The position numbers were made by a program, and so were the translations under genes. A model generated the notes under the pieces. The model was given only the letters and a program-made list of their open reading frames with translations, ran no database searches and was not told where the DNA came from. Shown here piece by piece: positions 11,447 to 53,792 of a stretch of 64,000 nt of DNA (its first letter is position 1; each line of letters begins with the position of its first letter). Source of the stretch: a virus (lineage: Duplodnaviria > Heunggongvirae > Uroviricota > Caudoviricetes); the IMG/VR virus record IMGVR_UViG_3300043119_000443; one strand, written 5' to 3'.

Positions 11447-11455
11447 GTTAACCAT
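11447..11455 (+). promoter_or_regulatory. GTTAACCAT motif (CtrA half-site-like) upstream of packaging genes
   Basis: Exact TTAACCAT 11448-11455, 22 nt upstream of TerS-candidate ATG 11477. Confidence 0.35.
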
Positions 11456-11476
11456 TGTGCCATCTTGCATGGCGCA

Positions 11477-12103
11477 ATGATGACCATGCCTGATCTCCCC
11501 GTCCCTGAACACCTGAAGTTCACGATGGACAAACTGCCCAAGCTACTCCTAGCTCTGGGTGAAGAGCCCGTGGAGATTCGAGCGTGCAAGAAGGCGAGCA
11601 TCCATCCGGTCGCGCTGGCGTTCGCCCGCAAGGCCGACCCCCAGCTCAACGAGATGATTGAATTCGCGATACAGATTGGCTTCTCTGTAGTCGAAGAGCG
11701 TATCTACGCCCGGAGCATGGGTGAGAACCGCACGCCGAAGTATTTCGAGGGCAAGCCCCTGACCTACATCGATCTGGAGACGGGCGACACGCGGTACGTC
11801 TACGAGGAAAGCCAGAGCGATTCGCTGCTGAAGAAGTTCGCGGAGCGTATCCGGCCCGACCTGTACGGCGACCAAATCCAAGTCAAGGTGGACAACCGCA
11901 CGACCCTCTATCTGCCGGAGGAAGTCATGGCTGACCAATTCGAGAAGCTTCTCGCCGCACAGGCGGACAAGACCCGGCTTATCCAGTCGGAAGGCCTGCA
12001 AGGCATGATGGACCGAATTGACGCCGCTGGTCGCACTCCCCCTATTGACGCGGAGTTCCACGAGGTCCATGAAGAGGATGACGATCTCGCGGGGCTGACC
12101 TAA
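11477..12103 (+). CDS. putative terminase small subunit
   Basis: Immediately upstream of and TAATG-coupled to the large terminase; ORF tool start TTG 11465, first ATG 11477; call is by position only. Confidence 0.45.
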   Translation: MMTMPDLPVPEHLKFTMDKLPKLLLALGEEPVEIRACKKASIHPVALAFARKADPQLNEMIEFAIQIGFSVVEERIYARSMGENRTPKYFEGKPLTYIDLETGDTRYVYEESQSDSLLKKFAERIRPDLYGDQIQVKVDNRTTLYLPEEVMADQFEKLLAAQADKTRLIQSEGLQGMMDRIDAAGRTPPIDAEFHEVHEEDDDLAGLT

Positions 12104-13536: not shown

Positions 13537-13540
13537 CCAT
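13533..13540 (+). promoter_or_regulatory. ATAACCAT variant of TTAACCAT motif overlapping portal start codon
   Basis: ggATAACCATGg, ATG 13539 is the portal start. Confidence 0.25.
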
Positions 13541-15203
13541 GGTTTCGCAACGCGATAAAGAGAATCCGGCGACACCGGGACTGTTTCACACGGTCATGGA
13601 TGAGCGCTGGGACTTGGTCAATTCGCTGCTCGGCGGAACCGAGGCGATGCGTCTGGCCGGTACGCTGTACCTCCCGCAGCACAGCCGCGAGTACGATGAA
13701 GACTATCGCGAGCGCCTGAAGCGTTCGATCCTGATCAACTATTTCGACCTGACCGTGGCGACGCTGTCGGGTAAGCCGTTCACCGAAGCCCTGCAATTCG
13801 GCGACGACGTGCCGGAGCAAATCCGCGGCGTGCTCGTCAAGGACGAGTCCGAGAAGAGCGAGAGCGCGGAGAAGGACGTTCTCCTGACTGGCGGCTGGAT
13901 CGAGGACATCGATCTGGAAGGCAATCACATCGACCAATTCGCGGCGCGCGTCTTCCGGGATGGTGTCTCGAAAGGGTACACTCACATTCTGGTGGACACC
14001 CCGGCGAAAGACCCGTCCCGGACGTACACCCTCGCTGACGAGAAGGCAGAGGGCATCCGCCCCTACTTCGTTCACATCCATCCCGAAAACGTGATCGCGG
14101 CCAACTGCGTCCGCCAAGACGGCGTCGAGCTGCTGACCCACATCCGCTGGTACGAATCGACCACGAAGCGCGACGGCTTCGCGGAAGTCGAAGAGCTGGT
14201 CATCCGCGAGATGACGCTGAAGACTAACGCGGAAGGCAAGCGCTACGTCGAGACGGGCATGTACCGGAAGCTGGAAGGCAAGACCGGCGCGTCCGCTAAG
14301 TCGTGGCAGAAGGTCGATGCCAAGCCCACTGACCTTGATTACATTCCGATTTTCACGTTCTACGCGCGCCGTGACGGCTTCATGGTTTCGAAGCCCCCGC
14401 TGCTTGATCTGGCGCACATGAACGTGCTGCACTATCAGCGTTATTCGGACCACATGAACGCCCTGACCGTGGCTTCGTTCCCGATCTTGGCCGCGTCCGG
14501 CGTCGCCCCGGAGGACGCGGGAAGCGTCACGATCGGTCCGCGCAACGTGCTCACGCTGGAAGACCCGAACTCCAAATACTACTACGTCGAGCATCAGGGT
14601 CTTGCCCTTACGTCATCCAAGGAAAACCTCGCCGATCTGGAGAACCAGATGGGTCTGTACGGCGCGTCGCTCCTGCGCAAGCGCCCGGACCGCGAGACGG
14701 CCACGTCGCGTTCTATCGAAGAGAAGAACACGTCGTCGGACCTTCAGCGTATGGCGTTTGGCTTCAAGGACACTCTCGAAAACTGCTTCAAGGCGATGGC
14801 CCAGATGGGCGGCGTCGGCACCGAGGGCGGCACCATCATGATCCACACCGACTTCGCGTTCGAAGGCGGCGACGTGGTCGATCTGCAAACGCTGCAAGTC
14901 GCGTACGACAAGCGCGCGATCTCGCGCGTCGGCTTCATCAACGAGCTGAAGCGCCGCGGTATTCTCGCGGAAGACTTCCACTCGGATGAAGACTTGGCCC
15001 ACCTCGTCAAAGAAAAGCAGGAACAGATGGGCGCGTTCTACAATCCGAAGATGGCCGAGATCGGCGAACAGACCAAGGGTCAGCTCGCCGTCGCGGACAA
15101 GACCAAGGAAACGCAGCTCGAACTCGCGGACAAGAACGCGGAAGTCGCCAAGGAAGTCGCCAAGAATGGCCCGGTTAAGGCCGGGATCAAGAAGAAGGAA
15201 TAA
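13539..15203 (+). CDS. portal protein
   Basis: 554 aa, directly after terL and before scaffold/capsid; acidic with Lys-rich C-terminus. Confidence 0.75.
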   Translation: MVSQRDKENPATPGLFHTVMDERWDLVNSLLGGTEAMRLAGTLYLPQHSREYDEDYRERLKRSILINYFDLTVATLSGKPFTEALQFGDDVPEQIRGVLVKDESEKSESAEKDVLLTGGWIEDIDLEGNHIDQFAARVFRDGVSKGYTHILVDTPAKDPSRTYTLADEKAEGIRPYFVHIHPENVIAANCVRQDGVELLTHIRWYESTTKRDGFAEVEELVIREMTLKTNAEGKRYVETGMYRKLEGKTGASAKSWQKVDAKPTDLDYIPIFTFYARRDGFMVSKPPLLDLAHMNVLHYQRYSDHMNALTVASFPILAASGVAPEDAGSVTIGPRNVLTLEDPNSKYYYVEHQGLALTSSKENLADLENQMGLYGASLLRKRPDRETATSRSIEEKNTSSDLQRMAFGFKDTLENCFKAMAQMGGVGTEGGTIMIHTDFAFEGGDVVDLQTLQVAYDKRAISRVGFINELKRRGILAEDFHSDEDLAHLVKEKQEQMGAFYNPKMAEIGEQTKGQLAVADKTKETQLELADKNAEVAKEVAKNGPVKAGIKKKE

Positions 15204-15206
15204 GCC

Positions 15207-15737: not shown

Positions 15738-15746
15738 GTTAACCAT
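15738..15746 (+). promoter_or_regulatory. GTTAACCAT motif adjacent to TTGAC, upstream of scaffold gene
   Basis: cTTGACgcGTTAACCATgttctgCCATTTTGG directly after GH108 stop. Confidence 0.35.
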
Positions 15747-16678: not shown

Positions 16679-16684
16679 GCTCTG

Positions 16685-16697
16685 CCATTAACCATGG
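16685..16697 (+). promoter_or_regulatory. CCATTAACCATGG motif + TTGACA-like element upstream of capsid gene
   Basis: gCCATTAACCATGGACTTGACagtccatcaatgg, 130 nt upstream of capsid ATG 16826. Confidence 0.35.
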
Positions 16698-16825
16698 ACT
16701 TGACAGTCCATCAATGGCTTGGTACAAGAAGGGCATCGGTGCTTAGTGGCATTGGTGCCCTTTCCATTTTGGAGGGCCACACCGGCACTCCACGCCCTTA
16801 AGGGCACAGACAAAGGAATACAAAC

Positions 16826-17797
16826 ATGGCTGTTCTGTCAGAAGTTCAAGCAGGCCTCCTGACCCAAGACGAACTCGTCGCGGGCATCATCGAAGACATC
16901 ATCACCGTGAACCAGATGTATCAGGTTCTCCCCTTCGACAACTACGAAGGCACGGGCCTGACGGTCAACCGCGAGAACGTCCTCGCTGGTGCTGGTCTTG
17001 CCGCGGTTGGTGCATCGCTGGCGGGCGCGGTCCCGGCCAACGGCATTCCGTCCATCGCCGGTGTCGGCGCGGGTACGAACTTCAAAGACCCCGCGACTTG
17101 GACGCAGGAAACCTTCACCCTGAAGACCATCATCGGCGACGCCGAAGTGAACGGTCTGGTGCAGGCTCAGCTTTCGGATATGACCGACCAGACGGCTTCG
17201 CAGATCGCCGCGAAAGCCAAGCAGGTTGGCCGTATCTACCAAGACCTTCTGATCAACGGCAACGAGAGCGTTTCCTCGCTCCAGTTCGACGGCCTGCTCG
17301 TCCTCGCGGACAGCCAAGTCGATGCGACTGGCGGCGGCGCTCTGTCCTTCATCGACATGGATACCGCCATGGATGAAGTGAAGGACAAGGATGGTGTCGT
17401 GGATTACATCGTCATGGCGTCCCGCACGCGCCGGGCCTACAAGGCCCTGCTCCGCGCTCTCGGCGGTGCCGCGATCGACGACGTTGTCACGCTCGAAAGC
17501 GGCGACATCGTGATTGCCTACGAAGGCGTCCCGATCTTCCGCAACGAGTACATGCCGACGGACCTCGGCGAAACTGCCGCCCAGACGGACACTGCCGTGA
17601 TCTTCGGCACGTTCGACGACGGCACTCGCCAGTACGGTGTCGCCGGTCTGACCTCCCGCTCCAACGGCGGCATCATGGTCGATGAGATCGGCGCGCTGGA
17701 AGGCTCCGATGCCACGCTGACCCGCGTCAAGTGGTACGCTGGCCTCGCGCAGTTCTCGCGCAAGGGTCTGACGATCCTCGCCAACGTGACGAACTAA
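16826..17797 (+). CDS. major capsid protein
   Basis: 323 aa after scaffold, strong terminator downstream, Gly/Ala-rich N-terminal region; call is by position only. Confidence 0.7.
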   Translation: MAVLSEVQAGLLTQDELVAGIIEDIITVNQMYQVLPFDNYEGTGLTVNRENVLAGAGLAAVGASLAGAVPANGIPSIAGVGAGTNFKDPATWTQETFTLKTIIGDAEVNGLVQAQLSDMTDQTASQIAAKAKQVGRIYQDLLINGNESVSSLQFDGLLVLADSQVDATGGGALSFIDMDTAMDEVKDKDGVVDYIVMASRTRRAYKALLRALGGAAIDDVVTLESGDIVIAYEGVPIFRNEYMPTDLGETAAQTDTAVIFGTFDDGTRQYGVAGLTSRSNGGIMVDEIGALEGSDATLTRVKWYAGLAQFSRKGLTILANVTN

Positions 17798-17820
17798 TCT
17801 TCGCCACAGACTTGACAAAT

Positions 17821-17861
17821 CGAGCCCGGAGGGTTTACCTTCCGGGCTCGATCCGTTTTTA
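17821..17861 (+). terminator. rho-independent terminator after capsid gene
   Basis: CGAGCCCGGA-GGGTTTACCT-TCCGGGCTCG hairpin (17821-17850) followed by ATCCGTTTTT. Confidence 0.6.
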
Positions 17862-17878: not shown

Positions 17879-18409
17879 ATGAAATCCGTGCCATTCGAAA
17901 CCCGCGCCTTCTACGCCTACGGCCATCCGAAGAACCCCCGGACCCCGGCGAACAGCAAGATCGACCTGTCCGGCATTCGGATGATCGGCGGGTTCAAGTT
18001 CACCGATGGAGCCATGTCGCTCTATCTCCCTGCTCTGAAGTCGGAGCGCAATGCCGCCTACCTCGAACGGTTGTTCGGCATTCATAACGAGGTACTTCAA
18101 CGTGTGGATGTTCCTACGCGGTCGCGCACCTTCTCACCGCAATCCGAATCTCAAGGCGTACTCGGCCTCATTGACGCGGGTGCTCCCGTCGCCGAAGGAC
18201 AACCGACCGAGGGGAGCGGACCTGCTAAAGCCAGCGGTCCCGACGGAGCTGCACTGGAAGCCATCCGGGGGCAACGTGGAGTCAGTGGCGCGAAGAAAGG
18301 TTCCAGTGTCGCCACCCCGACAAAACTGGACGCCGCCCAACGGGCCGCGCTCTTAGGCAATGGTCCGGGCGCGGACAAGCTCAACATCAACGCCGACGAT
18401 CTGACGTAA
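17879..18409 (+). CDS. hypothetical head-associated protein (176 aa)
   Basis: Position between capsid and adaptor; Gly/Ala/Pro-rich C-terminus. Confidence 0.4.
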   Translation: MKSVPFETRAFYAYGHPKNPRTPANSKIDLSGIRMIGGFKFTDGAMSLYLPALKSERNAAYLERLFGIHNEVLQRVDVPTRSRTFSPQSESQGVLGLIDAGAPVAEGQPTEGSGPAKASGPDGAALEAIRGQRGVSGAKKGSSVATPTKLDAAQRAALLGNGPGADKLNINADDLT

Positions 18410-18760: not shown

Positions 18761-18773
18761 GGTAACCATATGG
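18761..18773 (+). promoter_or_regulatory. GGTAACCATATGG motif upstream of adaptor gene
   Basis: Variant of TTAACCAT motif 25 nt upstream of ATG 18798. Confidence 0.25.
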
Positions 18774-19729: not shown

Positions 19730-20179
19730 ATGTCCATGAACTCTGCACAGGCACGCGTCGCGATCTACGAGCTTTGGGATGACGCATGGCAAGATGTCAC
19801 CGGATGGGCCGCGCTGCCCGGCGTGACCGTTGAGCCCCCTGTCTACTACGACAATATCGCCCCTGACGCCGCGCCCCGGTCGGACGCTATCAAGGTGGAA
19901 GTCAGTGTGATCCATACTGACAAGCCCATGGATAGCTTTGGGAACGGTCGCCCCAACTACAGGGCCACTGGAATAGTGGTCGTGAAGTTCTACGTTCCCA
20001 AGGATCAAGGATTGACTTTGGCAGACAGTATGGTTAATATCGCCCGGCGAGCACTGCAAGGTGTCCGCGGTTCTTCGGGGCTGGTGCTCCGGGGTATGTC
20101 AAGCAACGAGGAAGGCGCGGCGGATCGCTGGTTTGTGGTTCGCACTGTCACCCCATTTGAATACGAGGATGCAAGTTAA
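19730..20179 (+). CDS. hypothetical structural protein (149 aa), possibly neck/tail terminator
   Basis: Position; ATGA/TAATG coupling into the tail gene. Confidence 0.4.
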   Translation: MSMNSAQARVAIYELWDDAWQDVTGWAALPGVTVEPPVYYDNIAPDAAPRSDAIKVEVSVIHTDKPMDSFGNGRPNYRATGIVVVKFYVPKDQGLTLADSMVNIARRALQGVRGSSGLVLRGMSSNEEGAADRWFVVRTVTPFEYEDAS

Positions 20180-21744: not shown

Positions 21745-21782
21745 GGGCCTAGCCCGCGGGCTCTCAGAAGAAAGGGCGGCTA

Positions 21783-21818
21783 GGGGCCGGAGAGAAATCT
21801 CCGGCCCCTTTCATTTTG
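21783..21818 (+). terminator. rho-independent terminator
   Basis: GGGGCCGGAGA-gaaa-TCTCCGGCCCC hairpin then TTTCATTTTG. Confidence 0.6.
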
Positions 21819-21848: not shown

Positions 21849-21862
21849 CCATTAACCCTAAC
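21849..21862 (+). promoter_or_regulatory. CCATTAACCCTAAC motif upstream of 21889 gene
   Basis: Same 14-mer core recurs at 23191 and 62484. Confidence 0.35.
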
Positions 21863-23190: not shown

Positions 23191-23206
23191 GCATTAACCC
23201 TAACGG
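23191..23206 (+). promoter_or_regulatory. GCATTAACCCTAACGG motif 10 nt upstream of tape measure start
   Basis: Repeat of the 21849 and 62484 core. Confidence 0.35.
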
Positions 23207-23215: not shown

Positions 23216-26119
23216 ATGGCTACCCAGCCTATTGTCATTTCGGTCACGGTGAACGGCGCGAACAACGCCGCTCGCCAGATCACGAATGTCGGCACCGCCG
23301 CCGGTCGCGCGGAGCGTTCCGTCTTCAATCTGCGCAACCTGCTTCTCGGCTTCTCGGTCGTCTCGCTCGCCAAGGGTCTTCTGGCGATCACGGACGTTGC
23401 GACCCGACTGGACAACCGCCTCAACGTGCTGACCGGCTCACAAGCCCGGTCGAACGAACTCTTCCGCGAGCTGCTGAAAGTCTCGAACGATACGCGATCC
23501 GATCTGGAAGAGACGGTCAACAACTACGCGCGCCTCGAACGCTCTACGCAGGGGTATAACCTCACGGGCCGCGAGCTGCTTGATCTCACCAAGGGCATCA
23601 ACCAGTCGTTCAAGATTTTCGGTAACACGTCGGCGGAATCCGCGGCGGCGCTGGTCCAGTTTACACAGGGCCTTAGCGTGGGCGTGTTGCGCGGCGACGA
23701 ATTGCGCTCCGTTTTGGAACAGGCCCCGCGTTTGGCGAAGGCGATCGCGGACGGCTTGAATGAAATCCCGGAGGGTCAAGAACTCGCGGGCAAGTTCGGT
23801 CGTCTGTTCAAGGACTTCGAATCGGGCGCGATCTCGTCGGAGCTTCTGTCGGGTAGCTTGCGCCAGCTCGGCGCGACCGGCAAGCTGACCGGCGAGCTGA
23901 TCACCAAGGCGCTGCTCACCCAGTTGGGCAAGCTCAACGAAGAGTTCGAGCGCACGACGCCCACGATTGAAGACAGCATCACGATCGTCAAGAACAACTT
24001 CATCGCCCTCGCGCGCGATCCGTCGTTCCGTCTTTTCGCCAAGTCGGTGGCGACGGCGCTGATCAACTTCGCGGAAGAAATCCCGAAGGTAGTGGACGCG
24101 ATCAGGCCCTTCATCGTTATTCTGGCTGAAGGTGTCGGCCTTTTCTCGGACCTCATTTCGATCGGCGCGGAATTCGTCGGTGCCATCTCGGAGTTGTTCG
24201 TTAGTCTGGCTGAAACGGCGCTTGGCGCTTTCGGTGTCGTTGCAACCGCGGGTGAAGACTCGGGCGTCACGTTCTCGAAAGTGTTCGTCAACGCTTTCGG
24301 TATCATCTTCAATTCGTTCAAGACGGTCATAGACACTCTTGTCCGGGGTGCCGCTTTCATCGGCGGTTTCATCGCGGGTGTGGCTAAGGACATTTTCCTC
24401 GCATTCGACGTTGCGTTCGACGCTATCTCCGGTGCCGCGGAAGGCCTGATCAACTTCCTGATCGACGGCCTAAATGTGTTCAAAGGCGAAAGTGAAAAGA
24501 TCGCCAAGGTCAATTTCACTTCGGACAACGACCAGTTCAAGAACGAATTCCTCAACCCTCTTGAAGCGGGTACTGATGCCGCGAACAAGATGAGCGCTGC
24601 GGTGGACAAGGTGTTCGCGCCGTTCGAAGTCGCGGGCGAGAAAGCTGGCAATGCGATCGTGGCTTTCAGCCAGCGTTCCGCGGACGCCCTCGCGAAGATC
24701 AGGTCGGAAGTCCAAGAAGTCGCCGACACCGTTAATGAAATTACCGGCGATGCTGAAGCACTGCCGGTAGAAACGCAGTTGAATGCGAATGACCAGCGCC
24801 GTCTGGACAGCTTCCTCGATCGTCTTGCCGATCTGCGCGAAGGCGCGGATAGCGGTGTAGAAGGTCTGCGCGAGCTGAAGCGCGCCCAAGAACAGTACGA
24901 CAAGCTCGCGGGCAACGACGAGATCGCGAAGAAGCTGCAAGGCCGGTCCAAACAGGAAGAAGAATTCGCGGCGCTTCGCACGAAGTACAGCCTGCAAGCC
25001 GTGGCCGACCTCATGCAAGAAAGCATGGCGCAGGAAGACGCCGCGCAATCTTCACTGGATCACTATCGGGCGTATCGTCTGCTTACGAAAGCGCTCAAGG
25101 ACGGCGACGACGTTACGCAAGCGCAGATCGACACGCTCGCCGCCCAGCTTAAGGTCGAGCGCGATGTCATCGACGCTCAGCGTGAGAAGGACAACATCCT
25201 CGACAGCCTGACGCGCAAAGCGGACCAGTACAACGCGGTCCTGAAGGCGACCAACGAGCTGTTGGGCAAAGGCACGATCACCGAACAGCAACAGGCTCAA
25301 TTCCTGAAAGAGACGGACGTTGGCCGCGGCGTGGAAGACGCGAAGCAATTCGTCGCTGATGAATCGTTGAACCCTGAAGACAAGATCGCTCGCGAGCTGG
25401 AGCTGCTTCAGGCAGAAGAAGACGCGCGTATCGCTTTCATTGACGAGGCCGCACTTCTGAACCAAGAGAGGCTGGTGGAGTACGAACAACTCCGTCTCGA
25501 CACGATCGAAGCGTACTCCAAAAAGGAAACGGAAATCCGTCTGGCGGCGCAAAGCCTCCAGTACCAGAACGCATCTTCGGCGTTCGGCGATCTCGCGGAG
25601 CTGTCGAAAGGCTTCGTGAAGGAAAGCTCGGGCGTATACAAAACGCTGTTCGCCGTGTCCAAGGCATTCGCGATCGCTGACGGCTTCGTGAAGCTGAACC
25701 AAGCCATCATGAACGCGTCCGTGTCCCTGCCCTTCCCGGCGAACCTCGCGGCCATGGCGCAAGTCGGTGCGGCTGGCCTCGGACTGCTGGCGTCTATCAA
25801 GGGCGCAGTGGCCCCTGACGTGGCCCTGAAGGACGGTGGCTTCGTTGTCGGCCCCGGCGGTCCGCGAGATGACGCGGTCAACGCGGCGCTCTCGAACGGC
25901 GAATTCGTCGTGCGCGCGGACGCCGCGGCCCGTAACGCGGACTTGCTGGAGGCGATCAACTCTGGCCGATTTAATTCTGGACAAGGCGGCGGTTTGACGC
26001 TAAACCTGACCCAGAACGTGAACGGCGTGACGGACGCGCAAGGCTTCCGCGCATCTGGCCGTCAAGTTGCACAGGATACGGCTCGCGTCGTCGAGCGCGC
26101 CATCGCGAGGAATAGTTAA
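23216..26119 (+). CDS. tail tape measure protein
   Basis: 967 aa, Ala/Leu/Glu-rich coiled-coil, hydrophobic Gly/Ala/Ile/Phe-rich stretches (GAISELFVSLAETALGAFGVVA..), position before distal-tail genes. Confidence 0.85.
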   Translation: MATQPIVISVTVNGANNAARQITNVGTAAGRAERSVFNLRNLLLGFSVVSLAKGLLAITDVATRLDNRLNVLTGSQARSNELFRELLKVSNDTRSDLEETVNNYARLERSTQGYNLTGRELLDLTKGINQSFKIFGNTSAESAAALVQFTQGLSVGVLRGDELRSVLEQAPRLAKAIADGLNEIPEGQELAGKFGRLFKDFESGAISSELLSGSLRQLGATGKLTGELITKALLTQLGKLNEEFERTTPTIEDSITIVKNNFIALARDPSFRLFAKSVATALINFAEEIPKVVDAIRPFIVILAEGVGLFSDLISIGAEFVGAISELFVSLAETALGAFGVVATAGEDSGVTFSKVFVNAFGIIFNSFKTVIDTLVRGAAFIGGFIAGVAKDIFLAFDVAFDAISGAAEGLINFLIDGLNVFKGESEKIAKVNFTSDNDQFKNEFLNPLEAGTDAANKMSAAVDKVFAPFEVAGEKAGNAIVAFSQRSADALAKIRSEVQEVADTVNEITGDAEALPVETQLNANDQRRLDSFLDRLADLREGADSGVEGLRELKRAQEQYDKLAGNDEIAKKLQGRSKQEEEFAALRTKYSLQAVADLMQESMAQEDAAQSSLDHYRAYRLLTKALKDGDDVTQAQIDTLAAQLKVERDVIDAQREKDNILDSLTRKADQYNAVLKATNELLGKGTITEQQQAQFLKETDVGRGVEDAKQFVADESLNPEDKIARELELLQAEEDARIAFIDEAALLNQERLVEYEQLRLDTIEAYSKKETEIRLAAQSLQYQNASSAFGDLAELSKGFVKESSGVYKTLFAVSKAFAIADGFVKLNQAIMNASVSLPFPANLAAMAQVGAAGLGLLASIKGAVAPDVALKDGGFVVGPGGPRDDAVNAALSNGEFVVRADAAARNADLLEAINSGRFNSGQGGGLTLNLTQNVNGVTDAQGFRASGRQVAQDTARVVERAIARNS

Positions 26120-26124
26120 CCATG
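26115..26124 (+). promoter_or_regulatory. GTTAACCATG overlapping start codon of distal tail gene
   Basis: aataGTTAACCATGtcg; ATG 26122. Confidence 0.3.
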
Positions 26125-26739
26125 TCGTTCCATGACGTGCGCCTCCCCGTAGACGTTGAGCGCGGAGCCAGAGGTGGCCCCGGCTTCAACACTGGCGTTT
26201 CCGCGCTCGCTTCAGGCAAGGAACAGCGCAACATTAATTGGGCGCAACAGCGGTGTGCATACGATATTTCTTATGGCATTGGCTCGAAACAGCTCTACCG
26301 GGAAATCCTCAACTTCTTCTATGTGCGCCGTGGCCGGGCGTACGGCTTCCGGTTCAAGGATTGGGCGGATTATACGCTGACCGATGAGAACATCGGCACG
26401 GGCAATGGCGTGTTGACGGCGTTCCAGATCACCAAGACATACAGCGACGCCGCGGCATCGTACGTTCGCAACATCTACAAGCCGGTCAGCGGAACCATTC
26501 AAGTTTACAAAGCAGGCGTTTTGCAAACCGTGACTACGCATTACACCATTAACCATTCGACCGGCGTCATCACGTTCTTGGTCGCGCCGACGGGCGGACA
26601 GGCGATCACGGTCACCGGCGAGTTCGACGTTCCGGTCCGATTCGACACCGACAGTCTGGACGTGACCCTCCAGTGGGTCGAGGCCGGTCAGGTGCAAGGC
26701 ATCCCCCTCGTTGAACTTCGCCCGGAAGATTTGGCCTAA
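26122..26739 (+). CDS. distal tail protein, DUF2460 (RcGTA g12-like)
   Basis: N-terminus MSFHDVRLPVDVERGARGGPGFNTGV... and size/position after TMP match the GTA-type conserved phage protein family. Confidence 0.75.
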   Translation: MSFHDVRLPVDVERGARGGPGFNTGVSALASGKEQRNINWAQQRCAYDISYGIGSKQLYREILNFFYVRRGRAYGFRFKDWADYTLTDENIGTGNGVLTAFQITKTYSDAAASYVRNIYKPVSGTIQVYKAGVLQTVTTHYTINHSTGVITFLVAPTGGQAITVTGEFDVPVRFDTDSLDVTLQWVEAGQVQGIPLVELRPEDLA

Positions 26740-34880: not shown

Positions 34881-34933
34881 TCGGGCTCTGTACCATGCTT
34901 GACCTTTTGGGTCAACGAGTATATTCAACGACC

Positions 34934-35858: not shown

Positions 35859-36115
35859 TGTCCGAAGAGCCTGAACAATCCGCCAGCTTCGTTGAGCGGC
35901 ATCTCCAGACGATGATCATGGCCGCGCTCGGCGCTGTCTGCGCGTGGATGGCTATGACCACGCAAGGCCTGACCGTGAGCGTCGCCACGCTGACAGAGAA
36001 GGTATCGAACCTTCAGGCGCAAATAAGCGAACAGGGTGACAACAATTTCGAGTCCGAGATCGCCGACTTGAAGGCCCGCGTGTTCGTTCTGGAAAAGTCG
36101 CTCGACGCCAATTAA
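35858..36115 (+). CDS. membrane/coiled-coil protein (85 aa), possible lysis regulator
   Basis: TM segment IMAALGAVCAWMAMTT then coiled-coil; TAATG-coupled to o-spanin. Confidence 0.4.
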   Translation: MSEEPEQSASFVERHLQTMIMAALGAVCAWMAMTTQGLTVSVATLTEKVSNLQAQISEQGDNNFESEIADLKARVFVLEKSLDAN

Positions 36116-36119
36116 CTAT
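36112..36119 (+). promoter_or_regulatory. TTAACTAT motif next to TTGACTTGCGACTTTGAC
   Basis: aaTTAACTATTGACTTGCGACTTTGACgcag upstream of 36174 gene. Confidence 0.2.
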
Positions 36120-38223: not shown

Positions 38224-38267
38224 AAACGAATGGAAGCATGAACCATGCCAAGCCGTCAAGCCTAAAC

Positions 38268-38333: not shown

Positions 38334-38342
38334 GTTAACCAT
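38334..38342 (+). promoter_or_regulatory. GTTAACCAT motif between RNR stop and downstream gene
   Basis: gcGTTAACCATatccggg. Confidence 0.25.
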
Positions 38343-41304: not shown

Positions 41305-41313
41305 ATGGTTAAC
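41305..41313 (-). promoter_or_regulatory. TTAACCAT motif (minus orientation) about 25 nt upstream of dNMP kinase start
   Basis: plus strand ggaATGGTTAACgcgg. Confidence 0.3.
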
Positions 41314-46016: not shown

Positions 46017-46296
46017 GGCCGTCCAGACCGTCGATCGCCGTCTCGTAGGTTTCGAGAATTGCGTCCGCTTCTTCCCGCTCTTGGCGGTCCATGCGGCGGC
46101 GACGGATCACAGCGCGAAGCGCCTTCGTGTCATAGCCCATCGACTTCGCTTCGGCGTAGATGTCTTTCTGCGCGCCCTTGTGCTCGTCGATGTCCTCTTG
46201 GACGCGTTCGATCCGGGCAACCATATTGCGGAGCGCCTTCTTGGCGTTGTCGCCGAGGTTCGTGGCGACCGCATCGACGTTGATTTCGTCTTCCAT
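46009..46296 (-). CDS. DUF2312 / GapR-like nucleoid-associated DNA-binding protein
   Basis: RIERVQEDIDEHKGAQKDIYAEAKSMGYDTKALRAVIRRRRMDRQEREEADAILETY closely resembles the GapR core (...VYAEAKGNGFDVKVLKKVVRIRKQD...EEDAILDLY). Confidence 0.6.
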   Translation of the reverse strand: MEDEINVDAVATNLGDNAKKALRNMVARIERVQEDIDEHKGAQKDIYAEAKSMGYDTKALRAVIRRRRMDRQEREEADAILETYETAIDGLDGLV

Positions 46297-51058: not shown

Positions 51059-51137
51059 GAGGGCGTTGATCCTTTTTCTGAAGCGCTCGAACGTGTCATG
51101 CCAGAGACGTGCCACGGGGTCAACAACTTTTTTGTGG

Positions 51138-51166
51138 TTGACTTGGTCCGTACCCGGACGTATGAA
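51138..51166 (+). promoter_or_regulatory. sigma70-like promoter for primase-helicase gene
   Basis: TTGACT (51138-51143), 17-nt spacer, TATGAA (51161-51166), 27 nt upstream of ATG 51193; overlaps near-palindrome GTCAACAAC-ttttttg-TGGTTGAC. Confidence 0.4.
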
Positions 51167-51192
51167 GGCGATCGACCAAAGCGCGAGAACAC

Positions 51193-53769
51193 ATGACCCA
51201 ACCCGTCCCCAATGCGAAGTGGCTCCGACAATATCAGCCACTCGGGAACCGACTTATTCCTCTCTGTGATTATCGTGCGCTGTCCAAACAGGGCAAGCCT
51301 CTTGGTAAGACGCCATCCGTAAAGGACTGGACTAAGGACACATTCGAACACGCCAATATGGTTAAGTGGATGGAGGATGGCAATAACGTCGGCTTCCGTC
51401 TAGGCGACGGCTGGGGCGTTCTCGATTACGACCCAAGGCGCGATCCAGTCATTATGAAGTTGAAGCAAGAGAACGTCCACGATGATGTTCTCAGACTGCG
51501 TGAAACCGTCGGGCAGCGGAGCATCGACAGGCTTCTTGCTGACGTTGGTATTCAGCACGGCCAATACGCATTCGTCGAGACGGGCGGGCGCGGCCTGCAC
51601 ATCTACCTGAAAATCCCGGTGGGGTTCCGCGGGCGCGAACAGCTCAAGGAATATCCGGGCGTCGAATTCAAGCACAGCAACCGCCGCTACGTCGTCGCCA
51701 TGGGGTCAATCCATCCCGGCGATGAGAAGGAAGGCATTGCGCCGGGCAACTATTACAAGCCGGGCGACCAGTCGTTCGCGCTTATGAACACGATCTCATC
51801 GCCGCCGAAGCTCACGGAGCTTTTCAGCCACATCGATCCACCAGATTACGTCAAGCAAGCAGGAGAAGAGAGCTTTGGTCGGTTTTCGTCTTTCCAGCTT
51901 GCCGACACGCTCGCGTTGATTCCGCCGGAGACATTCCGGTCGGGGTCAGACCCATCATGGGAACAGTTCATGATGGCGTGCCACTGGATGACAGGCGGCA
52001 CGGGGCGTGAAGAATTCACTGACTGGTCCATCAGCGACCCGATGTACTCGGACCAAGATGAGATCATCCGCAGGCGTTGGGACAGTCTCACGCCGAAGGT
52101 GGACAGCCTGAAGACCGGGCTTGTCTTCAAGGTGCTCGCCCAGCTCAACATACCGCGCAGCAAATGGCCGACGGAAAGCGCGAGCGTCATGTTCGCGTCC
52201 GATCTGGACGACTTTTCGGCGCAAGAGCTTGAGGGCGAGATCATGCCCGAAAGCGCTGAAGCCAAGATCGTCAAGGCGATGAACGATGAGCACGCTCTCG
52301 TCATGATGACGACCGAACCCTTCTACATGGGCAACACCTATCACACGCTGTCCGGCACCGTTATTCCGGTGTTCCGCAAGCGCAGCGCCATGGTGGAGAT
52401 ATACGCGAACAAATCGCTGATAACCTCTGTCGCACAAGCGGGCGGTGAGAAGAAGATGGAGATGACCCACTTCGATTTCTGGCGTCGCCACCCCCAGCGC
52501 CGTCAATACATGGGCGTCGATTTCGCACCGGGCAGCGATCCGGAATTCATGACGCCCACTGGCATGTACTATAACACATGGCGCGGCTGGCCGTTCGATC
52601 CGGAGTTCCGCGGCAACGGAAACTGGGACAGGCTGAAAGAGATATTTTTCGAGAACATCTGCGACCGCGACAGAGAGATGTTCGACTACGTCATGAAGTG
52701 GATGGCGTACTCCGTCCAGCATCCGGCGGGCGCGCAGCGCGTGGCGTTCGTCATGCAGGGCGACAAAGGTCTTGGCAAGTCGATGTTCGCGAACGCATGG
52801 CGCGATATGTTCGGCAAGCACGGCCTGACGACCGATGAGAAGGACGACGTGTTCGGTCGCTTCAACAACCAGATGTCATCGACGCTCGCGCTCTTCCTTG
52901 ACGAAGCCCTGTTCGCCGGTGACAAATCCATCGACGGCAAGGTCAAGCAGCGTATCAACTCTCCGACGATCCGCGTCGAAGAGAAGTACATGCCCCAAGT
53001 CAATATCAAGAACCATCTGAAGTTCATGATCGCGTCCAACGATCAGCACGTGGTCGCGGCAACGCAGGGCGAGCGCCGTTACGTCGTGACGGATGCCAAG
53101 ATGAACATCCGCAAGCCGAATGCGATCTATGAGAAGGCGCATGAAGACCTGTACGGCACGCGCCAGCGCCCGCACACCGACGGCATTCAGGCGATGTTCT
53201 ATGACCTGATGCACCATGAGATCGGCGACTTCGAACCGGAGCGCGATCGCGTCACCTCGTCGGCGCTTCGCCGCCAAGTCCGTATCGAGTACGGCGACCG
53301 GGCCGAATGGTGGATCGAACGCATCGTCAACGAATCGATGCCGATGATGTTTGACCCCTCACCGACATACCGGGCGACTAAGGGCGTTGTAGCTAACTGG
53401 CATAAGCGACCGATTGCAGTGCCCGTCACTGCATTGCGTGAATCCATGAAGCTGTTTATGGGTGATCGGCTCAAGGGCGAACTACTGTTCGACTTCAAGG
53501 CGCGCTTCCTGACCGCCATCCAGTTCATGCTCCCGGAGACGACGGAGAGCAAGCGTCGGATGAAGCTCCCGGAAGGGATCGACTTCATGGGCGTCGATGC
53601 CGCAGAGAACGGGATGGCCGAATGCATCGTTCTGCCGCCGCTCCCCGTGTGCCGGGCGCACGTCGAAAACCTGTTTGGCAATCTCACCGGCGAAGTGATG
53701 CAGGATTTCGAGGCCGATGATCGATATGGTGTGGATGACATCGGCGACGATCTGGATGGTCTTGTCTGA
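51193..53769 (+). CDS. bifunctional primase-polymerase / D5-P4-type SF3 helicase
   Basis: N-terminal prim-pol-like region (GFRLGDGWGVLDYDPRRD...GRGLHIYLKIP), C-terminal Walker A GDKGLGKS and D5_N-like region. Confidence 0.8.
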   Translation: MTQPVPNAKWLRQYQPLGNRLIPLCDYRALSKQGKPLGKTPSVKDWTKDTFEHANMVKWMEDGNNVGFRLGDGWGVLDYDPRRDPVIMKLKQENVHDDVLRLRETVGQRSIDRLLADVGIQHGQYAFVETGGRGLHIYLKIPVGFRGREQLKEYPGVEFKHSNRRYVVAMGSIHPGDEKEGIAPGNYYKPGDQSFALMNTISSPPKLTELFSHIDPPDYVKQAGEESFGRFSSFQLADTLALIPPETFRSGSDPSWEQFMMACHWMTGGTGREEFTDWSISDPMYSDQDEIIRRRWDSLTPKVDSLKTGLVFKVLAQLNIPRSKWPTESASVMFASDLDDFSAQELEGEIMPESAEAKIVKAMNDEHALVMMTTEPFYMGNTYHTLSGTVIPVFRKRSAMVEIYANKSLITSVAQAGGEKKMEMTHFDFWRRHPQRRQYMGVDFAPGSDPEFMTPTGMYYNTWRGWPFDPEFRGNGNWDRLKEIFFENICDRDREMFDYVMKWMAYSVQHPAGAQRVAFVMQGDKGLGKSMFANAWRDMFGKHGLTTDEKDDVFGRFNNQMSSTLALFLDEALFAGDKSIDGKVKQRINSPTIRVEEKYMPQVNIKNHLKFMIASNDQHVVAATQGERRYVVTDAKMNIRKPNAIYEKAHEDLYGTRQRPHTDGIQAMFYDLMHHEIGDFEPERDRVTSSALRRQVRIEYGDRAEWWIERIVNESMPMMFDPSPTYRATKGVVANWHKRPIAVPVTALRESMKLFMGDRLKGELLFDFKARFLTAIQFMLPETTESKRRMKLPEGIDFMGVDAAENGMAECIVLPPLPVCRAHVENLFGNLTGEVMQDFEADDRYGVDDIGDDLDGLV

Positions 53770-53783
53770 ACTTGACTTCTTTG

Positions 53784-53792
53784 GTTAACTAT
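53784..53792 (+). promoter_or_regulatory. GTTAACTAT motif next to TTGAC after primase gene
   Basis: aaCTTGACttctttgGTTAACTATGGctactg. Confidence 0.25.

What the first reader, a model, noticed from the sequence alone, without database searches (positions are those of the whole stretch)
11447..53792. Recurrent TTAACCAT (CtrA half-site-like) motif at starts of late and replication genes
Exact TTAACCAT occurs at least 7 times (11448, 15739, 16688, 26116, 38335; reverse orientation at 41305 and 62340). One-mismatch variants sit at 13533 (ATAACCAT), 18762 (GTAACCAT), 21852/23194/62484 (TTAACCCTAAC), 36112/53785/62540 (TTAACTAT). My rough expectation for one AT-rich 8-mer in about 128 kb of two-strand sequence at about 62% GC is roughly 1. 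Most copies lie 10-130 nt upstream of, or overlapping, start codons of packaging/structural genes (TerS candidate, portal, scaffold, capsid, adaptor, tail chaperone, tape measure, distal tail), often beside TTGAC. TTAACCAT is the well-known half-site of the alphaproteobacterial cell-cycle regulator CtrA (full site TTAA-N7-TTAAC). This suggests late transcription of this phage is wired to host CtrA, or to a phage factor with the same specificity, i.e. to host cell-cycle or motility state.
Basis: partly seen in the sequence, partly recalled or inferred. Interest (0 to 1): 0.8.

Follow-up and report, generated by a model that had tools for sequence, protein, structure and literature searches.

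The report
Host CtrA-type boxes at phage promoters
An uncultured ~80-kb tailed phage that probably infects a stalked or budding alphaproteobacterium carries the recognition sequence of the host cell-cycle regulator CtrA in front of its packaging, head, tail and some replication genes, which extends a phage strategy first described in 2022 from a few unknown genes to the virion-building genes.

Summary
TTAACCAT occurs 10 times against about 0.3-0.5 expected and is the most over-represented 8-mer in the window. Seven copies are non-coding or at gene junctions (TerS, scaffold, capsid, tape-measure/next-gene junction, dNMP kinase, an RNR-side spacer, and a TTAA cluster at 62.3-62.55 kb). Three copies are coding and probably incidental. 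Two related variants are also enriched: TTAACTAT and TTAACC[C/T]TAAC. The window covers 64 kb of a roughly 80-kb genome. In an 87%-identical relative, the missing arc holds all 13 canonical TTAA-N7-TTAA boxes, set in tandem arrays. That is the signature published for CtrA-regulated alphaproteobacterial phages (Mascolo et al. 2022). Two independent markers point to an alphaproteobacterial host, probably in the Caulobacterales: a GTA-type host-specificity tail protein and a phage GapR gene. No phage-encoded response regulator, sigma factor or RNA polymerase was found. Brevundimonas phage Delta, whose gap-region sites bind CtrA in published experiments, also has a TTAACCAT directly upstream of its capsid gene. 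Host CtrA (possibly with SciP) reading these sites is the best explanation, at confidence about 0.6. Binding, and whether the effect is activation or repression, are untested. This is a new variant of a known kind.

The parts
11448..11455 (+). GCGTTAACCAT, 21 nt upstream of the candidate TerS start codon (ATG 11477). It lies in the spacer of a possible TAGACA-17-CATCTT promoter and overlaps the 5' arm of a strong hairpin (11453-11479).
   Evidence: Relatives have TTAATCAC here (2 mismatches) while the hairpin is conserved (z -3.45 and -4.0), so this is the weakest of the promoter-proximal sites.
15739..15746 (+). GCGTTAACCAT between the endolysin stop (15734) and the scaffold gene, 2 nt after a TTGACG -35-like box.
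   Evidence: Exact in relA and relB; TTAACCTT in the 77%-identical L002, which keeps the same TTGAC context.
16688..16695 (+). ATTAACCATG 130 nt upstream of the major capsid gene, ending 4 nt before a TTGACA-17-TACAAG promoter-like site.
   Evidence: Exact in relA and relB. In L002 the TTAACCAT has moved to between the -35 and -10 boxes, and a GGTTAAC remains upstream. Brevundimonas phage Delta has a TTAACCAT at the equivalent position upstream of its capsid gene.
18762..18769 (+). Decayed copy (GTAACCAT) about 40 nt upstream of the likely head-tail adaptor start codon. It overlaps the -10 of a predicted TTCACA-17-TATGGT promoter and follows a hairpin.
   Evidence: Relatives have exact TTAACCAT.
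21852..21862 (+). TTAACCCTAAC 26 nt upstream of the tail-assembly chaperone gene, just after a strong terminator (21782-21809) and a TTGACC-17-TAGCCA promoter-like site.
   Evidence: Identical in relatives.
23194..23204 (+). TTAACCCTAAC 11 nt upstream of the tape-measure gene start codon, downstream of a TTGACT box.
   Evidence: Relatives have TTAACCTTAAC, so this motif class is TTAACC[C/T]TAAC.
26112..26123 (+). ATAGTTAACCAT, a near-palindrome (TTAACCAT on the + strand, TTAACTAT on the - strand). It spans the tape-measure stop codon (TAA, 26117-26119) and the start codon of the next tail gene (ATG 26122).
   Evidence: Conserved in relA and relB. Absent in the 68%-identical L091, where the junction is TAATG.
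36112..36119 (+). TTAACTAT abutting a TTGACT -35-like box, about 52 nt upstream of the likely start codon of the 563-aa 'DNA transfer protein' gene.
   Evidence: Identical in relatives.
38335..38342 (+). GCGTTAACCATA in the 91-nt spacer between two minus-strand genes (the RNR stop codon at 38351 and the start codon of the next gene at 38259), in the opposite orientation to those genes.
   Evidence: The motif is exact in relatives while the 4 nt immediately after it differ.
41305..41312 (-). GCGTTAACCAT 24 nt upstream of the dNMP kinase start codon. It lies 16 nt downstream of TTGACG, i.e. at the -10 position of that promoter-like site.
   Evidence: Identical in relatives.
53785..53792 (+). GGTTAACTATGG after the primase stop codon, preceded by TTGACT, 33 nt upstream of the next gene (53826).
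   Evidence: Relatives have TTAATTAT.
62340..62547 (.). Cluster of 11 TTAA / 10 TTAAC in about 205 bp of a 670-bp intergenic region. It contains GCGTTAACCAT (62340-), two TTAACCCTAAC, two TTAATCTTAAC and one TTAACTAT. No pair has the canonical N7 spacing. It is the only part of the phage's dense TTAA regions that falls inside the window.
   Evidence: Homologous to the relA 2.6-2.9 kb cluster.
20030..20037 (-). Coding copy (M-V-N in ORF 19730-20179). It overlaps the -10 of a predicted + strand promoter, TTGACT-17-TAATAT. Probably incidental.
   Evidence: Relatives have TTAGT here.
26549..26556 (+). Coding copy (I-N-H) inside the GTA-g12-like tail gene. Probably incidental.
   Evidence: In L091 the same amino acids are encoded by ATC AAT CAC, so the DNA word is not preserved.
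51358..51365 (-). Coding copy (ATGGTTAA, giving M-V-K, on the + strand) 55 codons into the primase gene.
   Evidence: Substitutions against relA in 51193-51357 fall 27/10/6 on codon positions 3/1/2, so the ORF starts at 51193 and this copy is intragenic.

Best explanation
The TTAACCAT copies, together with the related TTAACTAT and TTAACC[C/T]TAAC words, are binding sites for the host response regulator CtrA. They are in its ungapped 'extended half-box' form, (G/A)TTAACCAT(A/G), which in Caulobacter also marks promoters co-occupied by the CtrA antagonist SciP.

The phage is an uncultured siphovirus of about 80 kb, of the YuA/Delta capsid type, and very probably infects an alphaproteobacterium, perhaps one of the Caulobacterales. 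Its CtrA sites come in two tiers.
1. Dense arrays of canonical TTAA-N7-TTAA boxes in a low-GC region of small genes. This region lies just outside the window. Only a smaller satellite cluster, at 62.3-62.55 kb, is inside the window.
2. Single ungapped boxes placed at, or within a few bases of, sigma-70-like -35/-10 elements in front of the packaging, head, tail and some nucleotide-metabolism transcription units.

As inferred, phosphorylated CtrA occupies these sites. Depending on position, it would help recruit RNA polymerase (sites next to or overlapping -35: scaffold, capsid, 36112) or occlude the promoter (sites on -10: dNMP kinase, adaptor). Phage gene expression, including virion production, would then follow the host's cell-cycle or motility state.

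What is shown: enrichment, non-coding bias, co-orientation with downstream genes, conservation in relatives, canonical arrays in relatives, host-lineage markers, and absence of a phage regulator with a known fold. What is inferred: CtrA binding, the direction of regulation, and the timing.
For: 1. Ten copies against 0.3-0.5 expected; the top 8-mer in an unbiased scan.
2. An exact match to the published CtrA ungapped site (PMC3692519; PMC6180460) and to the CtrA/SciP consensus (G/A)TTAACCAT(A/G) (PMC4083442). Nine of 10 copies, and all 7 non-coding copies, are preceded by G or A.
3. Seven of 10 exact copies are non-coding or at gene junctions in a window that is 90% coding. TTAA is depleted overall and 8.6 times denser in non-coding DNA.
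4. By my tally, about 11 of 14 non-coding sites point toward the downstream gene.
5. The relative relA (79,283 bp, 77-90% nucleotide identity, collinear with the window) has 19 TTAACCAT (0.78 expected) and 156 TTAAC. All 13 of its TTAA-N7-TTAA boxes lie within 5.5 kb of the arc the window lacks. A module occurs 4 times there: TTAA-N7-TTAA-N2-TTAA-N7-TTAA-N2-TTAAC-N16-TTAACC.
6. This matches the signature of phages for which CtrA binding and CtrA-dependent expression were demonstrated (Mascolo 2022).
7. Sphingomonas phage MMDA13 has the same 12-mer, TGCGTTAACCAT, 4 times in its gap region, yet shares no small or DNA-binding protein with this lineage.
8. Brevundimonas phage Delta has 6 TTAACCAT (0.25 expected): 4 in its gap region (sites there bind CtrA in published experiments), 1 directly upstream of its capsid gene, and 1 in its replication module.
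9. Host markers. The GTA-type host-specificity tail protein has 113 phage homologs, at least 84 of them from alphaproteobacterial phages. A phage GapR gene (PF10073, E = 6e-24) has its 80 nearest bacterial homologs all in Alphaproteobacteria, mostly Hyphomonadaceae and Maricaulaceae.
10. Controls. Ninety-eight other phage loci (1.5 Mb) have 17 copies against 64 expected. YuA and Xoo-sp2, which have the same capsid type but non-alphaproteobacterial hosts, have none.
11. Motif bases are 91.7% conserved against relA, compared with 83.8% for non-coding DNA overall; permutation p = 0.04.
12. No CtrA homolog, response regulator, sigma factor or RNA polymerase is encoded in the window or in the relative's extra arc.
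Against: 1. There are no binding or expression data for this phage, and its host is inferred, not known.
2. The window has no canonical full CtrA box. The arrays are seen only in relatives, not in the window's own missing arc.
3. The site position relative to -35-like boxes is not constant: from 4 nt upstream of the box to 16 nt downstream of it. No single activation geometry applies, and no transcription start site is known.
4. The TerS-upstream copy is degenerate in relatives (TTAATCAC) while an overlapping hairpin is conserved.
5. The junction copy at 26116 is absent in a 68%-identical relative.
6. The TTAACC[C/T]TAAC class has half-sites 6-7 bp apart, not the canonical 11 bp.
7. In the relative's arrays, the TTAACC next to the boxes can also be read as GGTTAA plus a T-run that closes terminator hairpins on the other strand.
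8. The conservation excess is modest (p = 0.04), because the relatives are close.
9. Rhodobacter phage RcSimone-Hastad, which has an alphaproteobacterial host and the same capsid type, has no such sites. The feature is therefore optional.
Confidence: 0.6

Rival explanations
1. A phage-encoded sequence-specific DNA-binding protein of unrecognised fold, such as one of the many small ORFans, reads the TTAAC-type words as its own operator or activator site. On this view the resemblance to the CtrA box is mimicry or coincidence.
For: Most small ORFs in the window and in the relative's extra arc have no Pfam match, so an unknown regulator cannot be excluded. Several sites contain the palindrome GTTAAC, and one is a near-perfect 12-bp palindrome (26112-26123), which would suit a dimeric phage repressor.
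Against: The same 12-mer occurs in MMDA13 and the same 8-mer pattern occurs in Delta. These phages share no detectable small or DNA-binding protein with this lineage. The relatives' arrays use the exact 11-bp TTAA-N7-TTAA spacing of CtrA. CtrA is published to bind such sites in Delta's gap region. No HTH, response-regulator or sigma domain was found in about 90 ORFs scanned.
Confidence: 0.15
2. TTAACCAT is a core promoter element (a -10- or -35-like hexamer variant) of the phage's middle or late promoters. It would be read directly by host RNA polymerase holoenzyme, or by an alternative host sigma factor, and would not be a transcription-factor site.
For: Sites are co-oriented with downstream genes and sit 0-130 nt upstream of start codons. 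At the dNMP kinase gene the motif lies exactly 16 nt after TTGACG. In the relative's modules it lies 16 nt after the last TTAAC. Experimentally trapped promoters in YuA occupy the same relative positions, before the scaffold, adaptor and tape-measure genes.
Against: The distance to -35-like boxes ranges from -12 to +16 nt, and the distance to start codons ranges from 0 to 335 nt. That is unlike a fixed core element. One conserved site is inverted relative to its gene (38335). No GGAAC-N16-CGTT (ECF-type) or TGGCAC-N5-TTGC (sigma-54) context was seen on manual inspection. No phage sigma factor or RNA polymerase was found.
Confidence: 0.1
3. The words are by-products of other constraints and have no shared reader. 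These constraints would be AT-rich nucleoid-protein (GapR/MucR-type) binding tracts, hairpin or terminator sequences, stop/start junctions (TAA-CC-ATG), and codon usage (ATG GTT AA., ATT AAC CAT).
For: Three copies are coding. The copy at 26116 is a stop/start junction. The TerS and capsid copies overlap hairpins. The TTAACC next to the relative's arrays doubles as a terminator stem and T-run on the other strand. The phage encodes a GapR-like protein that favours AT-rich DNA.
Against: A 20-30-fold excess of one exact 8-mer, extending to an 11-mer (GCGTTAACCAT, 5 copies against 0.04 expected), cannot arise from heterogeneous by-products. The hairpins are not general: the regions folded at 15739 and 41305 show no significant structure (z -0.47 and +0.55). 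Other junctions in the window do not use this word. The word is not enriched in 1.5 Mb of other phage DNA.
Confidence: 0.07
4. The sites reflect selection linked to a restriction-modification or methylation system that targets GTTAAC (HpaI-type) or a related word.
For: Eight GTTAAC palindromes occur in the window, five of them inside GCGTTAACCAT.
Against: Phages normally avoid restriction sites and do not accumulate them. The enrichment is intergenic, oriented, and asymmetric (CCAT on one side only). No DNA methyltransferase was recognised: the only methyltransferase hit is a generic SAM-dependent Methyltransf_23 domain.
Confidence: 0.03

Closest known systems
Alphaproteobacterial phages with clustered CtrA-binding sites ('LPEG' phages; Brevundimonas phage vB_BsubS-Delta, phiCbK-like phages, Mesorhizobium Cp1R7A-A1; Mascolo et al. 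2022, PMC9437464)
   Same: A low-GC intergenic or small-gene region is packed with TTAA-N7-TTAA boxes (seen here in the 87%-identical relative). Sites are intergenic and the host is alphaproteobacterial. The genome architecture resembles Delta's: TerS/TerL lead a structural module that contains the lysin; the replication module has PolA, helicase, SSB and dNMP kinase; the primase is divergently transcribed; and there is an ancillary module with thymidylate synthase and UvrD. PolA is 37% identical to Delta's. Delta also carries a TTAACCAT upstream of its capsid gene.
   Different: [quoted passage not shown] Here a second, dispersed tier of ungapped boxes sits in front of the TerS, scaffold, capsid, adaptor, chaperone and tape-measure genes and some nucleotide-metabolism genes. 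The dense region in the relative spans about 6 kb with four repeated cassettes, not one 1.3-kb gap. No binding or expression data exist for this phage.
Sphingomonas phage vB_StuS_MMDA13: 12-bp imperfect direct repeat TGCGTTAACCAT (Marmo et al. 2020, PMC7472734)
   Same: The extended word is identical: GCGTTAACCAT occurs 5 times in this window and 4 times in MMDA13. One MMDA13 copy is inverted over the first start codon downstream of the gap region. The host is an alphaproteobacterium.
   Different: In MMDA13 all four copies lie in a single 1.2-kb gap region (L005 8731-8953), and none lies at a structural gene. The two phages share only a UvrD helicase (56% identity) and a few tail proteins.
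Caulobacter CtrA/SciP-controlled S-phase promoters (class II flagellar, pilus secretion; Fumeaux et al. 2014, PMC4083442)
   Same: The consensus is the same, (G/A)TTAACCAT(A/G). Sites lie at or next to the -35/-10 elements of sigma-70-type promoters.
   Different: Those are host chromosomal promoters. In this phage, neither promoter activity nor CtrA or SciP occupancy has been measured.
Bacillus phage phi29 Spo0A boxes and LexA-controlled phages (host master regulators co-opted by phages; cited in PMC9437464)
   Same: The logic is the same: a phage places binding sites for a host developmental or stress regulator in its own promoters, so that it reads the host's state.
   Different: The regulator, the host clade and the site architecture all differ. 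The parallel is functional only.
Gene transfer agents of Alphaproteobacteria (RcGTA), whose production depends on CtrA (background knowledge; see also PMC6363796)
   Same: Phage-like head and tail genes are tied to the CtrA phosphorelay. This phage carries a GTA-type host-specificity tail protein and a GTA-g12-like tail gene.
   Different: In RcGTA, CtrA acts indirectly through GafA, and the element is a domesticated host locus. Here the boxes lie directly at the promoters of an autonomous phage.

Membership tests
CtrA-binding site (cis-element of the alphaproteobacterial CtrA regulon) | The sequence matches TTAA-N7-TTAA(C) or the ungapped TTAACCAT form. | tested here: met
   There are 10 exact TTAACCAT copies, 9 of them preceded by G or A. 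There is no full box in the window, but 13 full boxes occur in the unseen arc of the 87%-identical relative.
CtrA-binding site (cis-element of the alphaproteobacterial CtrA regulon) | The organism in which the site acts encodes CtrA, i.e. the host is an alphaproteobacterium. | tested here: inconclusive
   The host is not identified directly. Indirect support comes from the GTA-type host-specificity protein, whose homologs are almost confined to alphaproteobacterial phages, and from the phage GapR gene, whose 80 nearest bacterial homologs are all alphaproteobacterial. A portal-based scan of genomes found no prophage relative.
CtrA-binding site (cis-element of the alphaproteobacterial CtrA regulon) | The site lies in promoter DNA, near -35 (activation) or over -10 (repression). 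| tested here: inconclusive
   Sites adjoin TTGAC-type boxes, and two of the three consensus promoter predictions overlap sites. No transcription start is known, and sigma-70 consensus hits are not enriched (3 vs 3.6 expected).
CtrA-binding site (cis-element of the alphaproteobacterial CtrA regulon) | Phosphorylated CtrA binds specifically (EMSA, footprint or ChIP). | not testable with these tools
   This needs protein and DNA experiments.
Phages with skewed, intergenic CtrA-site distribution (LPEG signature, Mascolo et al. 2022) | Predicted full CtrA boxes are strongly concentrated in one genomic region. | tested here: met
   In relA all 13 full boxes lie between 14.4 and 19.9 kb of 79.3 kb, and 89 of 156 TTAAC hits lie between 14 and 20 kb. 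This is met for the lineage. In the window itself only the satellite cluster at 62.34-62.55 kb is visible.
Phages with skewed, intergenic CtrA-site distribution (LPEG signature, Mascolo et al. 2022) | Sites are preferentially intergenic. | tested here: met
Phages with skewed, intergenic CtrA-site distribution (LPEG signature, Mascolo et al. 2022) | The phage adsorbs to pili or flagella, and its gene expression depends on CtrA. | not testable with these tools
   The phage is uncultured.
Phage-specific promoter read by a phage-encoded RNA polymerase or sigma factor | The phage encodes an RNA polymerase or sigma factor. | tested here: not met
   No such domain was found in about 70 window ORFs or in 20 ORFs of the relative's extra arc.
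Phage-specific promoter read by a phage-encoded RNA polymerase or sigma factor | A long conserved consensus lies at a fixed distance from the transcription or gene start. | tested here: not met
   The conserved core is only 8-11 nt. The distance to start codons ranges from 0 to 335 nt, and the offset to -35-like boxes varies.
SciP-associated extended CtrA box | The site fits the consensus (G/A)TTAACCAT(A/G). | tested here: met
   All 7 non-coding copies have G or A upstream, and 5 of 7 have G or A downstream. SciP occupancy cannot be tested here.

The most novel reading that the evidence does not exclude
The dispersed boxes are composite CtrA/SciP sites that place the phage's virion-assembly operons (TerS, scaffold, capsid, adaptor, chaperone, tape measure) under direct host cell-cycle control. 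They would be silent in the swarmer or G1 cell that the phage infects, where SciP is present, and switched on by phosphorylated CtrA in the predivisional cell. That would supply the missing late-gene mechanism for 'lytic deferment'. The occurrence of a TTAACCAT upstream of the capsid gene in both this lineage and the only distantly related phage Delta would then reflect convergent or long-maintained selection for capsid expression timed by CtrA.
Probability: 0.3. Interest if true: 0.7.

Novelty: new variant of a known kind. Interest (0 to 1): 0.5.

Why it matters
Published work showed that some alphaproteobacterial phages borrow the host cell-cycle regulator CtrA. It tied this only to a handful of genes of unknown function in gap regions or terminal repeats. 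If the dispersed boxes found here are functional, the coupling reaches the genes that build and fill virions, and some replication genes. That gives a concrete, testable route by which a phage could time particle production to the host's developmental stage. It also suggests that full-box PSSM scans miss a second tier of ungapped sites, including one in the already studied phage Delta. Finally, it adds a freshwater, probably Caulobacterales-infecting lineage to the list of phages with this strategy.

Tried and rejected
1. Megablast of 20 kb of the window against 50,697 phage records found no match. The phage is new at the nucleotide level.
2. tblastn with a C. crescentus CtrA sequence recalled from memory found no homolog in the window.
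3. A regex search for full CtrA boxes in the window found none.
4. Exact-protein lookup of the capsid protein gave only unlabelled JGI metagenome contigs and no host information.
5. A genome-collection scan with a portal alignment found no prophage or MAG relative.
6. The sigma-70 consensus scan was not enriched (3 vs 3.6 expected), so it cannot define the promoters.
7. The idea that TTAACCAT is a fixed -10 or -35 element was rejected because its spacing to TTGAC boxes varies.
8. ECF-type (GGAAC-N16-CGTT) and sigma-54 (TGGCAC-N5-TTGC) contexts were checked by eye around the sites and not found.
9. The idea that 51358 marks the primase start codon was rejected by the codon-position substitution pattern.
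10. The idea that every site carries a hairpin was rejected. Only the TerS and capsid sites do.
11. The idea of a regulator shared with MMDA13 was rejected by an all-against-all BLASTP.
12. The more distant relatives L095-L097 and L124 show no enrichment in the stretches fetched, so they were not useful for footprinting.

Full report
**1. The observation**

TTAACCAT occurs exactly 10 times in the 64-kb window: 11448+, 15739+, 16688+, 20030-, 26116+, 26549+, 38335+, 41305-, 51358-, 62340-. Dinucleotide-preserving shuffles give 0.49 copies on average, and none of 100 shuffles reaches 10. An unbiased scan of all k-mers against a second-order Markov background ranks it first of 20,705 8-mers (10 vs 0.31, p about 2e-12). 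The scan also shows an extended form, GCGTTAACCA(T), present 5 times against 0.04 expected, and a second word, ATTAACCCTAAC, present 4 times. Among single-mismatch variants, only TTAACTAT (4 vs 0.07) and TTAACCCT (4 vs 0.16) are enriched. Its portal 'variant' (ATAACCAT at 13533) is only the TerL-stop/portal-start junction; it carries an indel in relatives and is at chance frequency. Its GTAACCAT at 18762 is at chance level as a word, but relatives have exact TTAACCAT there, so it is a decayed genuine site.

**2. What the window is**

PHROG and Pfam scans identify a siphovirus. On the + strand the genes are thymidylate synthase, TerS, TerL, portal, endolysin, scaffold, major capsid, adaptor, tail tube, chaperones, tape measure, and GTA-like distal tail genes that include an 1142-aa host-specificity protein. 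A minus-strand replication block follows: class II RNR, dNMP kinase, SNF2 helicase, PolA, a GapR-like protein, MazG-like protein, an Enc34-type SSB and a DUF2800 nuclease. After that come a prim-pol/helicase, a 1438-aa DUF5907 fibre protein and a UvrD-type helicase. No phage in a 50,697-record collection matches at the nucleotide level. The portal is about 41% and the capsid about 50% identical to those of YuA-, Bordetella FP1- and Xanthomonas-type phages.

**3. Where the sites are**

About 10% of the window is non-coding. Five exact copies are strictly non-coding (p = 1.4e-3), and six if the junction copy is counted (p = 1.3e-4). The 41305 copy lies in an over-called 5' ORF extension, 24 nt upstream of a start codon preceded by a Shine-Dalgarno sequence. 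The tally for exact copies is therefore as follows.
- Seven copies are non-coding or at junctions. They lie upstream of TerS, scaffold, capsid and dNMP kinase, at the tape-measure/next-gene junction, in a spacer beside the RNR gene, and in the 62.3-kb cluster.
- Three copies are coding.
  - 26549 encodes I-N-H. In the 68%-identical relative L091 the word dissolves through synonymous changes.
  - 20030 is not conserved in relatives.
  - 51358 lies 55 codons inside the primase gene. The true primase start at 51193 is shown by substitutions falling 27/10/6 on codon positions 3/1/2.

The enriched variants add sites upstream of the adaptor (18762), chaperone (21852), tape measure (23194), the 563-aa 'DNA transfer' gene (36112) and the gene after the primase (53785). 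TTAA as a tetramer is depleted overall (45 vs 68 expected) and 8.6 times denser in non-coding DNA. About 11 of 14 non-coding sites point toward the downstream gene. Two strong terminators (17819-17852 and 21782-21809) mark unit boundaries just before site-bearing spacers, and two of only three consensus promoter predictions overlap sites. In Pseudomonas phage YuA, experimentally trapped promoters are annotated at the same relative positions: before the scaffold-like gene, before the adaptor region, and before the tape-measure gene.

**4. Relatives and the unseen part of the genome**

Protein-seeded searches of IMG/VR recovered two close relatives from lake viromes. One of them could be rebuilt without conflicts into a single 79,283-bp contig, relA. 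relA is collinear with the window at 72-90% nucleotide identity and wraps around: window 58,856-64,000 corresponds to relA 1-4,290, and window position 13 corresponds to relA 20,402. The window is therefore 64 kb of a circularly permuted genome of about 80 kb, and about 16 kb is unseen.

In relA, TTAACCAT occurs 19 times (0.78 expected) and TTAAC 156 times. All 13 canonical TTAA-N7-TTAA boxes lie between 14.4 and 19.9 kb. That region has low GC (41-55%), contains small genes, and ends just before window position 1. Four repeated cassettes there read TTAA-N7-TTAA-N2-TTAA-N7-TTAA-N2-TTAAC-N16-TTAACC(A/C). The window's own cluster at 62,340-62,547 (11 TTAA in about 205 bp, with no N7 pair) is a smaller satellite of this system.

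**5. Conservation of the sites**

- The scaffold, capsid, junction, 36112, 38335, 41305 and 62340 sites are exact in relA and relB.
- At 38335 the four bases immediately after the motif differ while the motif is intact.
- In the 77%-identical L002, the capsid-upstream TTAACCAT has moved to the other side of the TTGACA box. That is site turnover with retention of the motif.
- The TerS site is degenerate in relatives (TTAATCAC), although an overlapping hairpin is conserved (-20.7 and -20.4 kcal/mol; z -3.45 and -4.0).
- Over 132 motif positions, identity to relA is 91.7%, against 83.8% for all aligned non-coding DNA and 87.2% for the immediate flanks (permutation p = 0.04).

**6. What the motif is known to be**

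TTAACCAT is the published ungapped or 'half' CtrA site (PMC3692519; PMC6180460). (G/A)TTAACCAT(A/G) is the MEME consensus of SciP ChIP-seq targets, interpreted as an extended CtrA half-box at S-phase promoters (PMC4083442). All 7 non-coding copies here have G or A upstream.

Mascolo et al. 2022 (PMC9437464) showed that several alphaproteobacterial phage lineages concentrate CtrA boxes in gap or terminal-repeat regions. They also showed that CtrA binds such sites and that reporter expression changes in a ctrA-ts strain. They note that Sphingomonas phage MMDA13 has four copies of TGCGTTAACCAT in its gap region, which is the same extended word as here. [quoted passage not shown]

**7. Specificity controls**

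- YuA and Xoo-sp2, which share the capsid type but have gammaproteobacterial hosts, have no copy and no TTAAC excess. Rhodobacter phage RcSimone-Hastad also has none.
- Brevundimonas phage Delta has 6 copies (0.25 expected): four in its gap region, where sites bind CtrA in published experiments, one at 9797 directly upstream of its major capsid gene, and one at 43371 in its replication module, co-oriented with the genes.

The two-tier pattern therefore recurs in a phage that is only distantly related (PolA 37% identical).

**8. Host**

No direct host link was found. Two independent markers point to the Alphaproteobacteria.
- The 1142-aa tail protein is a GTA-type host-specificity protein. Of its 113 phage homologs, at least 84 come from phages of Caulobacter, Rhodobacter, Brevundimonas, Roseobacter, Dinoroseobacter and Erythrobacter.
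- The phage encodes a GapR-like nucleoid protein (PF10073, E = 6e-24). All 80 of its nearest bacterial homologs are alphaproteobacterial. Most are Hyphomonadaceae or Maricaulaceae (Hyphomonas, Henriciella, Hyphobacterium, Oceanicaulis), with up to 78% identity over the best-matching segment.

From background knowledge, these are dimorphic, CtrA-governed bacteria with a GC content close to the phage's 59.7%.

**9. Rivals**

- **A phage-encoded reader.** This is disfavoured. No response regulator, HTH protein, sigma factor or RNA polymerase was found in about 90 ORFs. MMDA13, which has the same 12-mer, shares only a UvrD helicase and a few tail proteins with this lineage. Unknown small proteins cannot be excluded.
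- **A fixed core-promoter element.** This is disfavoured because the offset to TTGAC-type boxes varies: +2 and +4 nt at scaffold and TerS; 4 and 0 nt upstream of the box at capsid and 36112; +16 nt, i.e. at -10, at dNMP kinase; and over a predicted -10 at the adaptor.
- **By-products of junctions, codons or hairpins.** These explain at most a few copies.
- **Restriction-site logic (GTTAAC).** This predicts avoidance of the word, not intergenic accumulation.

**10. Mechanism and its limits**

The best-supported model is that phosphorylated host CtrA, possibly modulated by SciP, occupies these boxes. By the positional rule reported for Caulobacter (activation near -35, repression over -10; PMC6180460), the scaffold, capsid and 36112 sites look like activation sites, and the dNMP kinase and adaptor sites look like repression sites. 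Without transcription start sites this remains inference. Three things are unexplained: the 6-7-bp half-site spacing of TTAACC[C/T]TAAC, the inverted but conserved site at 38335, and the fact that in the relative's cassettes the TTAACC can also be read as the end of a terminator on the other strand.

**11. Verdict**

The finding is genuine, and the CtrA reading is the best explanation (about 0.6). As a phenomenon it belongs to a kind described in 2022. The new element is the dispersed tier of ungapped boxes at virion and replication promoters, which is also detectable upstream of the capsid gene of the already studied phage Delta. Interest is moderate (0.5). It would be higher (about 0.7) if direct cell-cycle gating of late genes by CtrA/SciP were shown.

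Noticed in passing
window 46009-46296 (-): A 95-aa GapR-like nucleoid-associated protein (PF10073, E = 5.8e-24) is encoded between PolA and the MazG-like gene. All 80 of its closest bacterial homologs are alphaproteobacterial, mostly Hyphomonadaceae and Maricaulaceae. A phage copy of a replication-linked host chromosome-structuring protein is of interest in itself.
   Followed up: partly
window 62238-62296; relA 14310-14504: A tandem direct repeat, GGCCGCGGGGGACTTCAGACTCGG, occurs twice beside the TTAA cluster. The same GGCCGNGGGGGACTTCA unit recurs 3-4 times next to the CtrA-box arrays in the relative. It is a second repeated element of unknown role that co-localises with the TTAA regions.
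   Followed up: partly
window 51059-51192: The divergent region between the primase gene (true start codon at 51193) and a minus-strand gene (start codon at 51058) contains an inverted repeat, GTCAAC-N12-GTTGAC (about 51120-51145), that resembles an operator. It contains no TTAAC.
   Followed up: no
window 11453-11479: A strong hairpin (11-bp stem, -20.7 kcal/mol, z -3.45) covers the candidate TerS start codon (11477). It is conserved in relatives (z -4.0) even though the overlapping TTAACCAT is degenerate there. It could be a translational or transcriptional control element for TerS.
   Followed up: partly
window 16693-16710: The hairpin ATGGACT-TGAC-AGTCCAT starts immediately after the capsid-upstream TTAACC. 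Its loop and 3' arm contain the TTGACA -35-like box (z -2.9 for the folded stretch 16684-16730).
   Followed up: partly
relA 20330-20406 (L122 8288-8364), just upstream of window position 1: The close relative carries a tRNA-Ile(GAT) gene directly before the point where the window starts. The window itself has no tRNA gene.
   Followed up: yes
relA 10692-11105 (-), outside the window: A 137-aa ORF in the relative's extra arc has a weak match to the C-terminal domain of ribosomal protein L7/L12 (E = 2.9e-5, just below the Pfam cutoff).
   Followed up: no
relA 15140-15190, 16694-16730, 17236-17275, 18176-18215: In each of the four CtrA-box cassettes of the relative, the TTAACC on the + strand reads on the - strand as GGTTAA plus a T-run following a GC-rich hairpin. 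That looks like a rho-independent terminator for the upstream minus-strand gene, so terminator and CtrA half-site appear to be fused.
   Followed up: partly
L126 9797-9804 and 43371-43378 (Brevundimonas phage Delta, MN862068): The published phage Delta has two TTAACCAT copies outside its gap region. One is directly upstream of the major capsid gene DELTA_15. The other lies between DELTA_51 and DELTA_50 in the replication module. Neither is mentioned in the 2022 paper's main text.
   Followed up: partly
window 34527-34928 (-), 43405-43755 (-), 1690-2661 (+): Accessory genes were noted in passing: recombination endonuclease VII, a small protein resembling the N-terminal domain of NAD-dependent DNA ligase, and an SPFH/Band-7 protein.
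   Followed up: no
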